Below, one piece after another: positions 1 to 17,607 of a stretch of 33,201 nucleotides of DNA (positions are counted from its first letter, which is position 1; each line of letters starts with the position of its first letter). The notes beneath the pieces were generated by a model that made no database searches, was not told the origin of the DNA, and saw only the letters and a program-made list of their open reading frames with translations. Location of the stretch: IMG/VR virus record IMGVR_UViG_2574180227_000019; one strand, 5' to 3'. A program made the translations under genes and the position numbers. The DNA comes from a virus. Its lineage: Duplodnaviria; Heunggongvirae; Uroviricota; Caudoviricetes.

Positions 1-18
1 AACCTCGGTTTACGGGAA
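1..18. other. Partial gix-like inversion crossover site (18 of about 26 bp; remainder left of the window)
   Basis: aacctcggtttacgggaa is the reverse complement of ttcccgtaaaccgaggtt, the first 18 bp of the complete site at 1418..1443; the two copies are in inverted orientation. Confidence 0.55.
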
Positions 19-387
19 ACGGTAAACAGGGCGGCGAATGCCCTGCCATCGAACGGAACGGCCGTTGCCGCGAACAGGCTGGCAAATGCCCACACAATTA
101 ATGGTGTTCCCTTTGACGGAACGCAGGATATCAACATTACCTCCGGTATGACCGAAGCTGCTGCTGATAACAAATACGTTCGCAACGTTCAGCTTGGTGC
201 CCAGAGTTACCATTCACCCGGAGGTAATGAAATGTCCTGGAGTTATGGCGCGCCTTCCGGTTGTATGCTTTCAGGTATTAACGTGCAGGAGACCGGGAGA
301 AATTCAGCCGATAATATCGGAGGCGTTTATTACCGTCCGGTGCAGATATATATCGGTAATGCCTGGCGCACAGTTTCATCCGTCTGA
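1..387 (+). CDS. Alternative tail-fibre C-terminal cassette (S'v-like), promoterless and without its own start; would be fused to the constant fibre N-terminus after inversion
   Basis: Frame 1 from position 1 reads NLGLRETVNRAANALPSNGTAVAANRLANAHTINGVPFDGTQDINITSGM..., homologous to residues from about 195 of the minus-strand tail fibre (NLGLRETVNKAADALPSGGTAVAANRLATPRNINGVPFDGTRDINITSGM...), then diverges. Stop at 385-387. In frame across the gix-like site. Confidence 0.6.
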   Translation, partial: NLGLRETVNRAANALPSNGTAVAANRLANAHTINGVPFDGTQDINITSGMTEAAADNKYVRNVQLGAQSYHSPGGNEMSWSYGAPSGCMLSGINVQETGRNSADNIGGVYYRPVQIYIGNAWRTVSSV

Positions 388-395
388 TTAAAGGA

Positions 396-418
396 AAAGG
401 GTGCGATAAGCACCCTTT
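396..418. terminator. Bidirectional hairpin between convergent fibre cassette and tail-fibre assembly gene
   Basis: Perfect 9 bp stem aaagggtgc / gcacccttt (396-404 / 410-418) with 5 nt loop gataa, lying between the stop at 387 (plus) and the stop at 422 (minus); T/A-rich flanks. Confidence 0.45.
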
Positions 419-421
419 ACG

Positions 422-964
422 TTATTCAGGCTTCTCCGGCCATTTAATGTCGTCAAATTCAGCTTTGTTTTTAATCGCTGGTAGTTCCATTTTTTTCACC
501 TGACTGATGTATGCCATCCATCGGGTAAGTGCGGCTCTGTCTTCATCACTGATGGTGCCCAGCTGTAATTCTGTTCTCCAGTCATTAATTTTTTCATATG
601 CCTGATTAAGATATGACTGGCGCATTGCTTCCAGTTTTCTTGCGTAGTTAACCGGAATACGGGAGATCACGCCATTATCAAACTTCCAGTTACCCGAAAT
701 ATCAGCACCTTCAGGGAGTTCGTCGACTTCAACCACAGAGAACCCCGCAGGATACAGCGCCGAAGCGTCCTGTGATATTGAGCAGATAATGCCGCTGTCA
801 GGTGTTATACAAAGTTTATATTTTTTTGTGAATAATGGCAGGGACTCGTAGAAATCCTTACCATCTTCACTCTGAAAATACTGTACATCATTACCATAGA
901 GGGTATTTTCCGGGTAATATCGTTTAACATTAATCAGTTGCATAAACATCACCATGTGAATCAA
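422..964 (-). CDS. Tail-fibre assembly protein (Tfa / Mu U-like)
   Basis: Translation has ...SEDGKDFYE...DASALYPAGFSVVEVDELPEGADISGNWKFDNGVISRI... and a C-terminal WPEKPE, resembling the Mu U / Tfa family as remembered. The track start is a TTG; a nearby in-frame ATG is equally plausible. Confidence 0.75.
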   Translation of the reverse strand: MIHMVMFMQLINVKRYYPENTLYGNDVQYFQSEDGKDFYESLPLFTKKYKLCITPDSGIICSISQDASALYPAGFSVVEVDELPEGADISGNWKFDNGVISRIPVNYARKLEAMRQSYLNQAYEKINDWRTELQLGTISDEDRAALTRWMAYISQVKKMELPAIKNKAEFDDIKWPEKPE

Positions 965-1063
965 TGATAAAAACAGGAATAATACTATCGCTATATACGG
1001 ACAGGGGTTGTCTGAGATAACGCATATATCAGGCGCTGCCTGCCGTACGCCATGAGCCGTTAA

Positions 1064-2017
1064 TTAAATACTTGCAGCGGATACCCAATTCCCATTAATA
1101 CAATATTGTATCTGTCTGTAATAAACACGGTCATCACCACCACGCATTTCCCAGTCTCCGTCAGTCTTAAAACCGGTAATCACATTTCCTGATGACAGGG
1201 AGTAATTATATTCCAGTACGCCGCTTAATGCCTGCGCTCCCAGTCTTACCCCTGTAACATAACGCTGATTGGCCGTTGATTCCGGCATTCCTGACGTAAT
1301 GTTTATATCCCGCGTCCCGTCGAAAGGAACACCATTAATATTTCTTGGGGTGGCGAGTCTGTTTGCTGCCACGGCGGTTCCCCCCGATGGCAGGGCATCA
1401 GCGGCCTTATTTACCGTTTCCCGTAAACCGAGGTTATCGATAAAGGCACTTCTGTTTGCAATGTCAGAACCATTTGACGCAACCTTAAGATATGACCCAT
1501 CACTTTGTTCGCGACTATATGAACCAATATCTGCGCCGCTTTTCAGATAACGCCGATCACCTTCTTCTTTACTGTAAACCCCAAGGTTGGTACGGGCCGC
1601 AACTTTATCGGGTACGTCAGACAAATTTTTGCTTTTTTCAAGCGCACCAACATCTGTTGGTGAAAGCTTATCTTTTGTCGCCAGAGTCCCCAGCCCAAGA
1701 GCTTTTCTGGCATTCGCCTGAGCACCAGCTCCCGCATCCTCGATTTCTTTCAGGTTGTTTTTACGTAAAAAAGCATTGGCCGTAATAATGGCCTTGATTG
1801 CCAGTGTAAGCTGATTCAGCTTCATTTTATCTGGTTGAATTTTTCCTTCAGTCAAAATCGCAAGCAATTCTGCCTGAATGATATTAAGCCAGTCCTGCCC
1901 GATATGGCTGATACCTTTATTACCGTCGCCTTCCGTAAACCACTTAACTTCAGTACCCTGCGATGGAGCCAGCGCTGGCATCTCTGTCGTACCGGTATTG
2001 TTATCCACGAAATACAT
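1064..2017 (-). CDS. Tail-fibre protein (constant N-terminal part about 194 aa plus variable C-terminal part Sv)
   Basis: 317 aa ORF, ATG at 2015-2017 overlapping the upstream stop (TAATG). A gix-like site sits inside the gene at the constant/variable junction; the C-terminal part is homologous to the plus-strand cassette at 1..387. Confidence 0.8.
   Translation of the reverse strand: MYFVDNNTGTTEMPALAPSQGTEVKWFTEGDGNKGISHIGQDWLNIIQAELLAILTEGKIQPDKMKLNQLTLAIKAIITANAFLRKNNLKEIEDAGAGAQANARKALGLGTLATKDKLSPTDVGALEKSKNLSDVPDKVAARTNLGVYSKEEGDRRYLKSGADIGSYSREQSDGSYLKVASNGSDIANRSAFIDNLGLRETVNKAADALPSGGTAVAANRLATPRNINGVPFDGTRDINITSGMPESTANQRYVTGVRLGAQALSGVLEYNYSLSSGNVITGFKTDGDWEMRGGDDRVYYRQIQYCINGNWVSAASI
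1418..1443. other. gix-like crossover site for a Gin/Hin/Cin-family serine invertase
   Basis: ttcccgtaaacc-ga-ggttatcgataa: 26 bp, two 12 bp imperfect inverted half-sites around a central GA. Closely resembles the gix site as I recall it (TTCCTGTAAACCGAGGTTTTGGATAA). Inverted partner at 1..18. Confidence 0.6.
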
Positions 2018-4084: not shown

Positions 4085-4691
4085 TTTCCGGTCCTCCTGT
4101 TTTACTTCCTTTGCCGTTGTCATGGTGCACATGTCCGGAATAGGTGATCCCCGCAATCTTGGCTTCAGACATAGTAAATGTGCCTTTTGACATACCGGTT
4201 CCATCGATCGCAAGATTGCCTTTCACATGCAGATTTTTTTCCACGATGACATCGCCGGTGAAGACCGTTTCAGGGGTATCAACGCTCACGCGCTCATCAG
4301 CAAAAATCTCAAGCGTCCGGCAGGTGATGATGATGCGTCCGTCTTTTGTCAGGCGAATGCGGTGCCCTTCGTAGTGATAAAGCCCACTGTCGCCGGAAGT
4401 CAGCCCGGATGGGCGGTAACGCCGGTCATCAACCACCAGAACAACGGCCTGATCACGCTGACCACCAGGACAGGCGAAGAATAGCTCCGCCCCCGGTAAG
4501 GGTACGCTGATTTGTCCGTACTGCTGTGGCCGTTCAACATCATCAAACGTTTCCCCCTCCATTCCGGTAAGCTGTACATTCTGCATTTTCAGCTCATCAC
4601 GGATACCGGTAAGAACCCCCCGTCCAATCAGAAGACGCACCCCACGCATAACGGGGGCTATAAGGCGGCTGAAAACCTCTTCATTTATCAT
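4077..4691 (-). CDS. Baseplate assembly / spike protein (gpV-like, Mu gp45-like)
   Basis: 204 aa ORF, ATG at 4689-4691; position between the gpD/P-like gene and gp46-like gene. Confidence 0.6.
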   Translation of the reverse strand: MINEEVFSRLIAPVMRGVRLLIGRGVLTGIRDELKMQNVQLTGMEGETFDDVERPQQYGQISVPLPGAELFFACPGGQRDQAVVLVVDDRRYRPSGLTSGDSGLYHYEGHRIRLTKDGRIIITCRTLEIFADERVSVDTPETVFTGDVIVEKNLHVKGNLAIDGTGMSKGTFTMSEAKIAGITYSGHVHHDNGKGSKTGGPENG

Positions 4692-16197: not shown

Positions 16198-16282
16198 GTC
16201 GGTGTACTCTTAACTGGTAAAGCGGCGCCTGATGGTTTTTTCCTGAGGGATGTTTATGCGGGTTCGACCCCCGCCACCGACC
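16198..16282 (+). ncRNA. tRNA-like element (class II length), uncertain
   Basis: Perfect 7 bp acceptor-like stem (16198-16204 with 16275-16281), T-arm gcggg-ttcgacc-cccgc (16258-16274), T8 A9, GG in the D-loop, U33 and purine 37 around a GAT anticodon-like triplet. The anticodon stem pairs poorly (G-U pairs and mismatches) and the D-stem has one mismatch. Confidence 0.25.
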
Positions 16283-17607
16283 TACAATTCACCCTCCAGT
16301 AATTCCAGCTTTCCACCGCGCAGATCATCAAGTAATGCCTCCTTTTTGACTCTGTAGGCATTAATCACCACATCCAGCTTATCCGGCTGACGTTTCACAC
16401 TATAAGGCGCATTGACGGCAATCTTTGCCGTTCCGTCACGGGTTTCAGTGATGTAAAGCAGATTCTGATGGACATGATCCCACAGCACGGCATCAGGCGC
16501 GGCCAGCATTGCCGGTAATCGCCCGAAATCCTCCGGCGTCAGGGCAATGCCGTCATTCTGATGTTTCACGCTGTCCGCATGGAGCACATTTTTACCGCTC
16601 ATCGCCAGCAGGCGGGCCGGTGGCGTTCCCGTCCGGCTTTCCACCGCCTGCGCAATACTTTCGGTCATAAAGCCCAGCGTGCGGATATCGTGACCACCTC
16701 GCCGGGTCTTCATGATGTTTTTTGCCCAGATGCGGAACGCCAGCTGCCGCTCCGGGCTGTTGTTCATCTCCTGAACCACCATTTCCCGTAACGCCGGGCT
16801 TTTCACCTCGATCAGTTTACGGATCAGCGCCTGGTCTGTGCCGAACGCCGCCGAACCGGGGTTATATGACCAGCCCACATCCGGTGTCATGGTTCTGGTG
16901 CCATCTGAATATGTGGTCACCGGCATTTCTCTGACTTCTCCGGTCTGCTTATCCACGCCAGCCTCAACATTGCGGGTGGAGAGATGATCCTGACCGGATG
17001 AAACGGATAACCCCATTGCATCCAGACGGGCCTGAGATAATGGCCGGACACGGCAGCGGCAGTTCCAGCCATTGGGCGGGTAGTGTGTATTCCAGAACGG
17101 ATCGTCATAGCGGAATACCAGCCCGTTAAAGGCGGAATGTGCCGGGCGGGTGCGGCTGTCCATCACCGCCACATACTGCCAGAACGGATGCGTGTCCGTG
17201 TTGTTCATCATCTGCGTGTAACGCCCGGCATTGTAAGCCACACGGGTGTTCACGTTGTAAATCAGCGCCAGACGGCGGGGACTGCCCAGCTGCACTTCTT
17301 CCGCGTTACCGGCACTGTCCACCACAATCTGTTTTCCCCACCATCCCAGCTTTTGCAGGCGGGGTGTCAGCGTGCGAATAAATGCTTTCTGTGAAATTCC
17401 CTCATCAATGGCCCGCTGCACTTCGGCCTGTAACGTGGTCACCACATCCAGGCGTGCCGCTTTTGCTGCCGTGAATGAGCGGGCATGAACATCCGCGGCT
17501 GTTTCGAACCAGTTCCAGCTGATATGCGCCCCTTTGACACGGAAGTATGCTACCGCCTCTTTTGAGGGAAGCGTGGCGGCATAACCTAAATCAATCCCCT
17601 GTGTCAT
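16282..17607 (-). CDS. Head morphogenesis protein (Mu F-like)
   Basis: 441 aa ORF after portal; contains ...SRTRPAHSAFNGLVFRYDDPFWNTHYPPNGWNCRCRVRPL..., typical of the Mu F / minor head protein family as remembered. Confidence 0.75.
   Translation of the reverse strand: MTQGIDLGYAATLPSKEAVAYFRVKGAHISWNWFETAADVHARSFTAAKAARLDVVTTLQAEVQRAIDEGISQKAFIRTLTPRLQKLGWWGKQIVVDSAGNAEEVQLGSPRRLALIYNVNTRVAYNAGRYTQMMNNTDTHPFWQYVAVMDSRTRPAHSAFNGLVFRYDDPFWNTHYPPNGWNCRCRVRPLSQARLDAMGLSVSSGQDHLSTRNVEAGVDKQTGEVREMPVTTYSDGTRTMTPDVGWSYNPGSAAFGTDQALIRKLIEVKSPALREMVVQEMNNSPERQLAFRIWAKNIMKTRRGGHDIRTLGFMTESIAQAVESRTGTPPARLLAMSGKNVLHADSVKHQNDGIALTPEDFGRLPAMLAAPDAVLWDHVHQNLLYITETRDGTAKIAVNAPYSVKRQPDKLDVVINAYRVKKEALLDDLRGGKLELLEGEL

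What the first reader, a model, noticed from the sequence alone, without database searches (positions are those of the whole stretch)
1..1443. Invertible segment carries two fibre cassettes but only one tail-fibre assembly gene
In Mu and P1, as I recall, each orientation supplies its own assembly gene (U and U'). Here the plus-strand cassette ends at 387 and abuts the 3' end of the single assembly gene (422..964), separated only by a bidirectional hairpin, with no second assembly gene in between. After inversion the assembly gene would point against late transcription. Either the alternative fibre does not need it, it has its own promoter, or the cassette is a decaying remnant.
Basis: partly seen in the sequence, partly recalled or inferred. 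Interest (0 to 1): 0.5.

Follow-up and report, generated by a model that had tools for sequence, protein, structure and literature searches.

The report
Invertible tail-fibre switch, one shared chaperone
A Mu-like E. coli prophage flips a 1.4-kb DNA segment to swap the receptor-binding tip of its tail fibre, but unlike phage Mu it carries a single fibre-assembly gene for both tips; this is a real, widespread variant of a known switch, and how the gene is expressed in one orientation is still open.

Summary
Window 1-1443 is almost all of a Gin/gix-type invertible segment of an Sp18-like Mu-like prophage. It holds two alternative tail-fibre C-terminal cassettes: Sv at 1431..1064 (-) and S'v at 1..387 (+). 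Between them lie one tfa gene (943..422, -) and a hairpin (393-415).

A 100%-identical E. coli prophage carries the segment flipped. There the Gin-like invertase gene starts 62 nt beyond the left site, so no second tfa is hidden left of the window. Only two crossover sites exist.

All 30 IMG/VR relatives in which the tfa gene and at least one neighbouring cassette could be read, plus seven further E. coli/Stx-phage loci, have exactly one tfa. Both orientations are common in genomes.

S'v is not a remnant. It is intact everywhere, with dN/dS of 0.04-0.22.

S'v-like tips in non-invertible relatives are followed directly by a tfa of the same clade, so S'v probably needs the chaperone. In this family tfa is preceded by a 51-120 nt AT-rich spacer, against 4-17 nt in 46 other relatives. 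It also stays intact in "locked" variants that are permanently convergent.

My best reading is one generalist chaperone, transcribed independently of the late operon when S'v is on. No promoter could be demonstrated.

Verdict: a new variant of a known kind, of moderate interest.

The parts
1..18 (.). Inner 18 nt of the invertase-side 26-bp gix-like crossover site (AACC TC GGTTTACGGGAA). The crossover dinucleotide is at 5-6. The outer 8 nt (ATCCCTGA) lie left of the window.
   Evidence: The complete site is seen in L001 and L002, which carry identical or 93%-identical DNA.
1..387 (+). S'v: the alternative fibre C-terminal cassette. 128 codons plus TGA, with no start codon. It is fused to the constant part Sc after inversion.
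   Evidence: In L001 it is fused to Sc as a 322-aa gene. It is intact in all relatives and dN/dS is 0.04-0.22.
1..156 (.). Left arm of the extended imperfect inverted repeat. It encodes the conserved stretch NLGLRETVN...INITSGM that is common to both cassettes.
   Evidence: I1 and I2, 83% complementary.
393..415 (.). G+C-rich hairpin between the converging stop codons of S'v and tfa. It is a likely bidirectional terminator.
   Evidence: A hairpin is present at this position in all three subfamilies, with two unrelated sequences.
422..943 (-). tfa: the single tail-fibre assembly (chaperone) gene, 173 aa.
   Evidence: Pfam Caudo_TAP, E = 2.8e-19. Homologue of Mu U, PDB 5yvq_B, E = 2.3e-17. RefSeq annotates it on identical DNA.
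944..1063 (-). 120-nt non-coding spacer between the Sv stop and the tfa start. Positions 1029-1063 are a remnant of another tip class's 3' end. The proximal ~85 nt are conserved and AT-rich. This is the candidate site of a tfa promoter, which is unproven.
1064..1431 (-). Sv: the fibre C-terminal cassette currently fused to Sc. Its tip is Mu-S-like.
   Evidence: (the last 68 aa align to the Mu S tip, E = 1e-18).
1280..1435 (.). Right arm of the extended inverted repeat.
1418..1443 (.). Fibre-side 26-bp gix-like crossover site, TTCCCGTAAACC GA GGTTATCGATAA. The crossover dinucleotide is at 1430-1431.
   Evidence: (Mu gix is TTCCTGTAAACCGAGGTTTTGGATAA).
1432..2017 (-). Sc: the constant N-terminal part of the tail-fibre gene, lying outside the invertible segment.
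   Evidence: residues 1-110 align to Mu S 1-110. The junction is the same in both isomers.

Best explanation
The region is a compact Mu G-segment-like host-range switch. A Gin-type serine invertase is encoded just left of the window. It recombines two inverted 26-bp gix-like sites and flips about 1.43 kb as one unit. This exchanges the last 123-128 codons of the tail-fibre gene (Sv or S'v).

Both tips belong to one structural family, and a single Tfa chaperone gene between them serves both.

In the window's orientation, tfa is read as the last gene of the late tail operon.

In the other orientation, the late transcript ends at the hairpin after S'v. Tfa must then come from a separate transcript. 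The most likely source is the AT-rich spacer upstream of tfa. A less likely source is transcription entering from the invertase side.

Shown here: the anatomy, the inversion, the single tfa, and that S'v and tfa are under selection.

Inferred: that one Tfa folds both tips, and that tfa is transcribed independently.
For: Inversion and boundaries.
- Identical or near-identical prophages occur as both isomers.
- An inner half-site SNP travels with the Sv cassette between isomers L005 and L008.
- The invertase is 76% identical to Gin and has Resolvase and HTH_7 domains.

Both states are common.
- 44 complete E. coli genomes match the S'v-on junction and 27 match the Sv-on junction.
- Among IMG/VR loci with a detectable invertase the split is 16 versus 5.

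One tfa is the rule. All 30 IMG/VR family loci in which the tfa and at least one neighbouring cassette could be read (complete segments 1.30-1.41 kb between the two site cores), and all E. coli loci examined, have one tfa.

S'v is functional. It is intact in every cassette recovered, with dN/dS of 0.04-0.22 at saturating dS.

S'v probably needs Tfa. In at least 15 non-invertible relatives an S'v-like tip (42-63% identity) is followed within 4-17 nt by a co-oriented tfa of this clade. The N-terminal 100 residues of those Tfa proteins are 59-63% identical to this Tfa, against 40% for Mu U.

The chaperone is a generalist. Near-identical tfa alleles sit next to three different Sv tip classes and two S'v classes, all sharing one scaffold.

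Independent expression.
- The spacer before tfa is 51, 79 or 120 nt in every family member that retains the Sv cassette. It is 4-17 nt in all 46 non-family relatives.
- Eight 'locked' variants lack Sv, the invertase and the second site, and share one deletion junction. All keep an intact tfa that is permanently convergent with Sc-S'v, with pN/pS of 0.13-0.25 between their alleles.
- A terminator-like hairpin between the converging genes is kept in all subfamilies despite unrelated sequences.
Against: - No promoter was demonstrated. The best sigma-70 PWM score in the 135 nt before tfa is 6.7, and 21% of background windows score as well. The simple scan finds nothing there.
- The phage's own late-promoter box was deduced from the regions before lys and I. 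In the spacer it is represented only by CTGATAT, a heptamer of a type (CTGAWAT) that occurs 27 times in the window.
- The three spacer types share no sequence. Part of the window's spacer is simply a recombination scar.
- Allele diversity of tfa in the locked variants could have arrived by recombination rather than by evolution in place.
- Binding of this Tfa to either tip was not tested.
- The orientation counts are not phylogenetically independent.
Confidence: 0.55

Rival explanations
1. S'v fibres do not need the phage's own tfa in cis. Either they fold unaided, or they borrow a Tfa made by another prophage in the same cell. On this view tfa serves only the Sv orientation.
For: No promoter could be shown for tfa in the flipped state. 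The tip classes found in the S'v position (D and E) never occur in the Sv position, so they could have special properties. E. coli hosts of this family carry many other prophages with tfa genes (for example the lambdoid prophage around the element). From my own recollection, Tfa proteins can cross-complement between phages (lambda Tfa for T4 gp38).
Against: S'v-like tips in non-invertible relatives are always followed within 4-17 nt by a tfa of this clade. Locked S'v-only variants keep an intact, selected tfa. This Tfa's N-terminal 100 residues are closer to those of the partners of S'v-like tips (59-63%) than to Mu U (40%), the partner of the Sv-like tip. Other prophages' late genes are not expected to be on during Mu-type induction.
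Confidence: 0.2
2. The S'v-on orientation is a poorly infectious or 'off' state. Without co-oriented tfa the fibres misfold, and the switch works mainly as an on/off toggle.
For: After inversion tfa is antisense to the late operon, and a hairpin ends the late transcript. No promoter was detected.
Against: S'v is under strong purifying selection, with variation concentrated in loop positions as in working receptor-binding tips. S'v-on is the more frequent state in assembled lysogens. A whole lineage is locked S'v-on yet keeps the fibre gene and tfa intact.
Confidence: 0.1
3. The plus-strand cassette is a decaying remnant of a former Mu-like S'/U' pair whose U' has already been lost.
For: Classical Mu-like prophages with two tfa genes exist in E. 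coli.
Against: S'v is an intact 118- or 128-codon reading frame in all 23 distinct S'v-position cassettes recovered. dN/dS is 0.04-0.22 while synonymous sites are saturated. No U' fragment lies between 387 and 422 or anywhere else in the segment.
Confidence: 0.02
4. A second tfa or further crossover sites lie outside the window, so that tfa stays co-oriented with the expressed fibre (a multi-site system of the Min or shufflon type).
For: The window ends inside the left site, so its left flank is not visible in the window itself.
Against: Identical DNA in a complete genome shows the invertase gene 62 nt beyond the site and no tfa. Only two sites are found per locus at up to 2-3 mismatches. The observed isomers flip the whole unit.
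Confidence: 0.01

Closest known systems
Phage Mu G segment with Gin/gix (S, U / U', S')
   Same: The fibre is a Mu S homologue with a constant N-terminal part outside the segment and a variable C-terminus inside it. The crossover site is nearly the Mu gix sequence and falls at the same place in the protein (NLGL(R/Q)ETVN). The invertase is 76% identical to Gin and lies immediately beyond the segment, reading away from it. The Tfa is a Mu U homologue.
   Different: The segment is 1.43 kb instead of 3 kb. The variable parts are 123-128 codons instead of about 320-335. There is one tfa instead of two, so tfa becomes antisense to late transcription in one state. A 51-120 nt spacer precedes tfa, against a 2-nt gap in Mu. 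A hairpin lies between the converging S'v and tfa stop codons.
Sp18, the Mu-like prophage of E. coli O157:H7 Sakai
   Same: It appears to be the same prophage family, by inference: Sakai's own sequence was not examined. O157:H7 genomes carry the same module, with an identical invertase protein accession and one tfa. Asadulghani et al. [quoted passage not shown]
   Different: The window's constant fibre part and its tfa allele differ from the O157 type (tfa about 70% nucleotide identity). The single-tfa layout and its consequence were not discussed in the papers I could search.
Other Din-family switches: P1 C segment/Cin, e14 P segment/Pin, p15B Min
   Same: All use a serine invertase acting on short inverted sites inside a tail-fibre gene to alternate its C-terminus. 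This rests on my own knowledge; only pinE was seen here, as a 75-76% nucleotide match to the invertase gene.
   Different: As I recall, P1 and e14 supply a tfa with each cassette, and Min has six sites. Here there are two sites and one tfa.
Non-invertible Mu-like/P2-like fibre-tfa pairs (IMG/VR loci L044-L091)
   Same: The same Tfa clade (53-61% identity) and S'v-like tips. This shows the usual partnership of this tip type with this chaperone.
   Different: Most have no invertase and no gix sites. The tfa is co-oriented and separated from the fibre gene by only 4-17 nt.

Membership tests
Gin/Din serine-invertase DNA inversion systems | An adjacent serine recombinase with Resolvase and HTH_7 domains, closely related to Gin, Cin, Pin or Hin | tested here: met
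   The gene is not in the window. On 100%-identical DNA (L001 7498-8058) it has PF00239 at 1.4e-51 and PF02796 at 1.7e-14, and it is 76% identical to Mu Gin.
Gin/Din serine-invertase DNA inversion systems | Two inverted 26-bp crossover sites with matching central dinucleotides | tested here: met
   The right site is 1418-1443. The left site is cut by the window end (positions 1-18) but is complete in L001 and L002. The core is TTCCCGTAAACC GA GGTT, against Mu's TTCCTGTAAACC GA GGTT.
Gin/Din serine-invertase DNA inversion systems | Inversion actually occurs | tested here: met
   The window and NZ_CM129862/NZ_CP116067 are 100% identical but inverted. Both junction types occur in tens of genomes. 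Direct reads from one culture were not examined.
Gin/Din serine-invertase DNA inversion systems | A Fis-dependent recombinational enhancer in or near the invertase gene | not tested
   No reliable sequence test is available here, and the invertase gene lies outside the window.
Mu G-segment-type host-range switch (S-U / U'-S') | A fibre gene split into a constant part outside the segment and alternative variable parts inside it | tested here: met
   Sc is 2017..1432; Sv is 1431..1064; S'v is 1..387. The fused 322-aa Sc-S'v gene is seen in L001.
Mu G-segment-type host-range switch (S-U / U'-S') | Each orientation brings its own co-oriented assembly gene (U and U') | tested here: not met
   There is one tfa per segment in the window and in every family locus examined. 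Mu and NZ_CP066032 have two.
Caudo_TAP tail-fibre assembly proteins (Tfa/U/gpG) | A Pfam PF02413 match above threshold and homology to a Tfa of known structure | tested here: met
   70 bits against a cut-off of 22.1. Mu U, PDB 5yvq_B, E = 2.3e-17.
Caudo_TAP tail-fibre assembly proteins (Tfa/U/gpG) | Binds the fibre tip and is required for its trimerisation | not testable with these tools
   This needs co-expression or pull-down experiments, or a multimer structure prediction. Only monomer prediction is offered here.
Multiple-inversion systems (p15B Min, shufflons) | More than two crossover sites that allow sub-segments to invert | tested here: not met
   Exactly two sites per locus, and one in the locked variants.

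The most novel reading that the evidence does not exclude
A single, naturally generalist Tfa chaperone sits inside an invertible segment and folds at least five divergent tip classes. It is supplied by two alternative transcription routes: read-through of the late operon in one orientation, and a dedicated promoter in the family-specific spacer in the other. This would be a previously undescribed solution for coupling chaperone supply to a DNA switch, and a possible 'universal' chaperone for fibre engineering.
Probability: 0.4. Interest if true: 0.5.

Novelty: new variant of a known kind. Interest (0 to 1): 0.38.

Why it matters
Tail-fibre chaperones are usually treated as tip-specific partners that must accompany each receptor-binding module. 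Mu, the textbook case, duplicates the chaperone with the tip.

This family occurs in more than 200 complete E. coli genomes, including O157:H7, and it manages with one chaperone for two or more tips. That implies two things. Tfa specificity is broader than the Mu paradigm suggests. Chaperone expression must also be uncoupled from the late operon in one state.

This has two practical uses. It helps predict the host range of Mu-like prophages in pathogenic E. coli. It also helps engineering of retargeted phages or tailocins, where having to co-transfer a matching chaperone is a nuisance.

It does not overturn any principle. The inversion machinery itself is ordinary.

Tried and rejected
1. A sigma-70 promoter in the spacer. 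The consensus scan and a PWM with an empirical background gave nothing above chance.

2. A C-dependent late promoter in the spacer. I derived the phage's late box from the regions before lys and I, and compared it with the four annotated Mu late promoters. The spacer shares only CTGATAT; heptamers of that type (CTGAWAT) are frequent in the window, and the -10-like hexamer is 3 nt out of register.

3. An inward-facing promoter at the invertase start, TTGAYA-16-CAGCAT (PWM 8.2-10.1). It overlaps the conserved catalytic-serine codons, so its conservation is explained by coding. It is left as a lead only.

4. Counting orientations with junction queries centred on the fibre-side site. This failed because the constant fibre part of this window is shared by only two genomes. 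I replaced it with invertase-side junction queries.

5. CP066032, the Mu-type inversion confirmed by long reads in PMC9881135. It turned out to be a classical two-tfa segment, not this architecture.

6. A genome-contig scan with the Tfa protein found no confirmed relatives, so the taxonomic range beyond E. coli and IMG/VR was not established.

7. Rfam and tRNA scans of the region were empty.

8. The North et al. 2019 paper on the Mu S-U structure is not in the library. I therefore could not map Tfa-contact residues onto the two tips.

9. Transcriptome papers that mention Sp18 contained no usable strand-specific data for tfa.
Full report
**What is there**

The window is a Mu-like prophage with its late genes on the minus strand. 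It encodes baseplate J, a Mu gp48-family protein and a fibre gene.

The 317-aa fibre (2017..1064) is a homologue of Mu tail fibre S (PDB 5yvq_A, E = 1.1e-58). Its first 110 residues, the crossover region (NLGLRETVN against Mu NLGLQETVN) and the last 68 residues all align to Mu S.

Downstream lies one Caudo_TAP gene (Pfam E = 2.8e-19), a homologue of Mu U (5yvq_B, E = 2.3e-17). Its likely start is the ATG at 943, not the TTG at 964.

On the plus strand an open frame runs from base 1 to the TGA at 385-387. It has no start codon. It is 50% identical to the last 123 residues of the fibre: about 80% in the first 50 residues and much less in the tip. It matches a solved 'short tail fiber' tip (9cuy_c, E = 8.4e-16) and the Mu S tip.

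A 9-bp G+C hairpin (393-415) sits between the two converging stop codons.

Imperfect inverted repeats of about 156 nt, with a perfect 26-nt core, bracket the unit.

**Boundaries and the missing second gene**

The sequence at 1418-1443, TTCCCGTAAACC GA GGTTATCGATAA, is almost the Mu gix site, TTCCTGTAAACC GA GGTTTTGGATAA. The window begins 4 nt outside the crossover dinucleotide of the partner site.

Two complete E. coli genomes carry DNA that is 100% or 99.9% identical over 1-1435, but in the opposite orientation relative to 1436 onwards. In NZ_CM129862 the constant part is fused to the plus-strand cassette as a 322-aa gene. There tfa is convergent with it. The Sv fragment follows, then the second site, and 62 nt further a recombinase gene reads away from the segment.

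That recombinase has Resolvase and HTH_7 domains and is 76% identical to Gin.

So nothing is hidden left of the window. The invertible unit is about 1.43 kb and contains one tfa. Only two sites exist, even allowing mismatches.

**Is it an oddity of one genome?**

No. About 230 of 5,426 complete E. coli genomes match the module. The loci I opened include O157:H7, other STEC and a Stx phage carrying a Mu-like insertion. Those with a gene table all show the same layout with one tfa. The Stx-phage record has no gene table; its single tfa match and its two cassettes were found by sequence.

Among 80 IMG/VR loci found with the Tfa protein, 32 are family members. In 30 of these the tfa and at least one neighbouring cassette could be read. 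All 30 have a single tfa. Where both sites lie on the contig, they are 1.30-1.41 kb apart.

Classical Mu (AF083977) and a classical Mu-like prophage (NZ_CP066032) have two tfa genes and a gap of about 2 nt between fibre and tfa.

Asadulghani et al. [quoted passage not shown] I did not examine Sakai's own sequence, so placing the window in the Sp18 family rests on other O157:H7 genomes that carry the module. I found no paper that discusses the single assembly gene.

**Inversion is active and both states are common**

The window and its identical relatives are isomers of each other. L005 and L008 are also isomers, and an inner half-site SNP travels with the Sv cassette between them. That places the exchange at the site core.

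I used junction queries on the invertase side. 44 genomes hold the S'v-on junction (Sv next to the invertase) at 80% coverage or more. 27 hold the Sv-on junction.

In IMG/VR loci with a detectable invertase the split is 16 to 5.

These counts are lower bounds. They are also not phylogenetically independent. They still show that the state in which tfa is antisense to the late operon is at least as frequent as the other.

**Is S'v a remnant?**

No. Every S'v cassette recovered is an intact frame of 118 or 128 codons (23 distinct sequences). Its variation is concentrated in a few loop segments on a conserved scaffold.

Pairwise dN/dS is 0.04-0.22 while synonymous sites approach saturation. This is comparable with tfa itself.

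**Does S'v need the chaperone?**

Probably. In at least 15 non-invertible relatives, a fibre ending in an S'v-like tip (42-63% identity) is followed within 4-17 nt by a co-oriented tfa of the same clade.

I compared the N-terminal 100 residues of the Tfa proteins, a stretch I took to approximate the fibre-binding domain. The modular model of Tfa proteins comes from North et al. 2019. That paper is cited in the Mu cryo-EM paper, but I could not read it, so the domain assignment rests on my recollection of its abstract. On this measure the window's Tfa is 59-63% identical to those partners of S'v-like tips, but only 40% identical to Mu U, the partner of the Sv-like tip.

Near-identical tfa alleles occur beside three Sv tip classes (A, which is Mu-S-like, plus B and C) and two S'v classes (D and E). 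All five share these motifs: [RK]Y[VI]..[VI][RQ]LG, G.[VM][LIM][TS]G and [YF][YF]R..Q..[IL].G.W.

The window's Sv tip looks like a recent import. A 35-nt remnant of a class-B tip's 3' end still follows its stop codon.

All of this fits one tolerant chaperone serving the whole tip family.

**How is tfa expressed when S'v is on?**

This step is not resolved. The indirect evidence for independent transcription is as follows.

1. In every family member that still has an Sv cassette, tfa is preceded by an AT-rich spacer of 51, 79 or 120 nt. In all 46 non-family relatives the gap is 4-17 nt.

2. Eight 'locked' relatives have lost Sv, the second site and the invertase through one shared deletion. They are permanently S'v-on with tfa convergent. 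All keep an intact 173-codon tfa, with pN/pS of 0.13-0.25 between their alleles.

3. A hairpin between the converging genes is retained in all three subfamilies, although it exists in two unrelated sequences. That is what one would expect if two transcripts meet there.

The evidence against is as follows.

- No sigma-70-like promoter scores above background.
- The phage's late-promoter box is not present in the spacer. I deduced that box from the regions before lys and I. It reads CTGAWATYCCGCAAARCC, with TAYGCT starting 38 nt downstream of the start of the box.
- The three spacer types share no sequence.
- An inward-facing promoter-like element exists over the invertase start codon, but coding constraint explains its conservation.

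**Comparison and verdict**

Mechanistically this is a Gin/gix switch of the Mu G-segment kind. It meets the defining features of the inversion system. It fails one feature of the Mu arrangement, namely a chaperone gene for each orientation.

I classify it as a new variant of a known kind. It is a minimal segment that exchanges only the tip and shares one tfa.

Of its three interpretations, 'remnant' is rejected, 'no need for Tfa' is disfavoured, and 'own promoter' is favoured but unproven.

Interest is moderate. It bears on chaperone specificity and on host-range prediction and engineering. It is not a surprise at the level of mechanism.

Noticed in passing
window 1-18; L012 5560-5922: The window starts 4 nt outside the crossover dinucleotide of a gix site. 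An IMG/VR contig with identical DNA (L012) also ends inside this repeat. Assemblies seem to break here, probably because both isomers are present in the sequenced cultures.
   Followed up: partly
window 1029-1063 (-): Directly after the Sv stop codon lies a 35-nt remnant of the 3' end of a different tip class. In L007 the same sequence is in frame as ...LINGSWRTAGST*. The Mu-S-like Sv tip therefore replaced an older tip by recombination.
   Followed up: partly
window ~23481-23436 (-) and ~15559-15514 (-): The regions before the lysozyme gene and before the protease (I) gene share the box CTGAWATYCCGCAAARCCYGCC, with a TAYGCT hexamer starting 38 nt downstream of the start of the box. These are probably this phage's C-dependent late promoters. 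The box differs from Mu's CCATAAYCCC.
   Followed up: partly
L003 (NZ_CM129862 1874000-1918000): The identical Mu-like prophage is inserted inside the tail genes of a lambdoid prophage, between minor tail protein L and the C40 peptidase/K gene. Two Stx-converting phage records (LC727895, LC727881) carry a related Mu-like insertion.
   Followed up: no
L001 8158-12635; L002 888-5287: Beyond the invertase lie a 680-aa DUF6645 gene, DUF1378, DUF826 and com. These are followed either by mom (L002) or by a DNA cytosine methyltransferase in its place (L001).
   Followed up: no
L009, L015, L022, L023, L025, L028, L029, L032: These are 'locked' relatives. One shared deletion removed Sv, the invertase and one crossover site. 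It fixed the S'v-on state with tfa convergent. In L009 tfa is divergent from DUF6645 across about 305 nt.
   Followed up: partly
L001 7299-7484; L002 7299-7493: RefSeq annotates a 61-64 aa 'hypothetical protein' antisense to the conserved 5' end of the cassette and running across the gix site, in both isomers. It is probably a spurious ORF.
   Followed up: no
window ~16222-16306 (L003 23153-23237): RefSeq marks a 'tRNA-OTHER' here, between the head morphogenesis genes. ARAGORN finds no tRNA anywhere in the window.
   Followed up: partly
L001 7498-7530 (antisense); L016 ~4480-4510: The antisense strand of the first invertase codons (MLIGYIRVST) reads as an inward-facing TTGAYA-16-CAGCAT promoter-like element (PWM 8.2-10.1). 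It could transcribe whichever cassette lies next to the invertase. Its conservation is explained by coding constraint, and it is unproven.
   Followed up: partly
window 1012-1032 (-): The spacer holds a 21-nt dyad. It is CTGAAAT-ATGCGTT-ATTTCAG in most alleles and imperfect in the window (CTGATAT...ATCTCAG). It lies just after the old stop codon and is absent from the other two spacer types. Its function is unknown.
   Followed up: no
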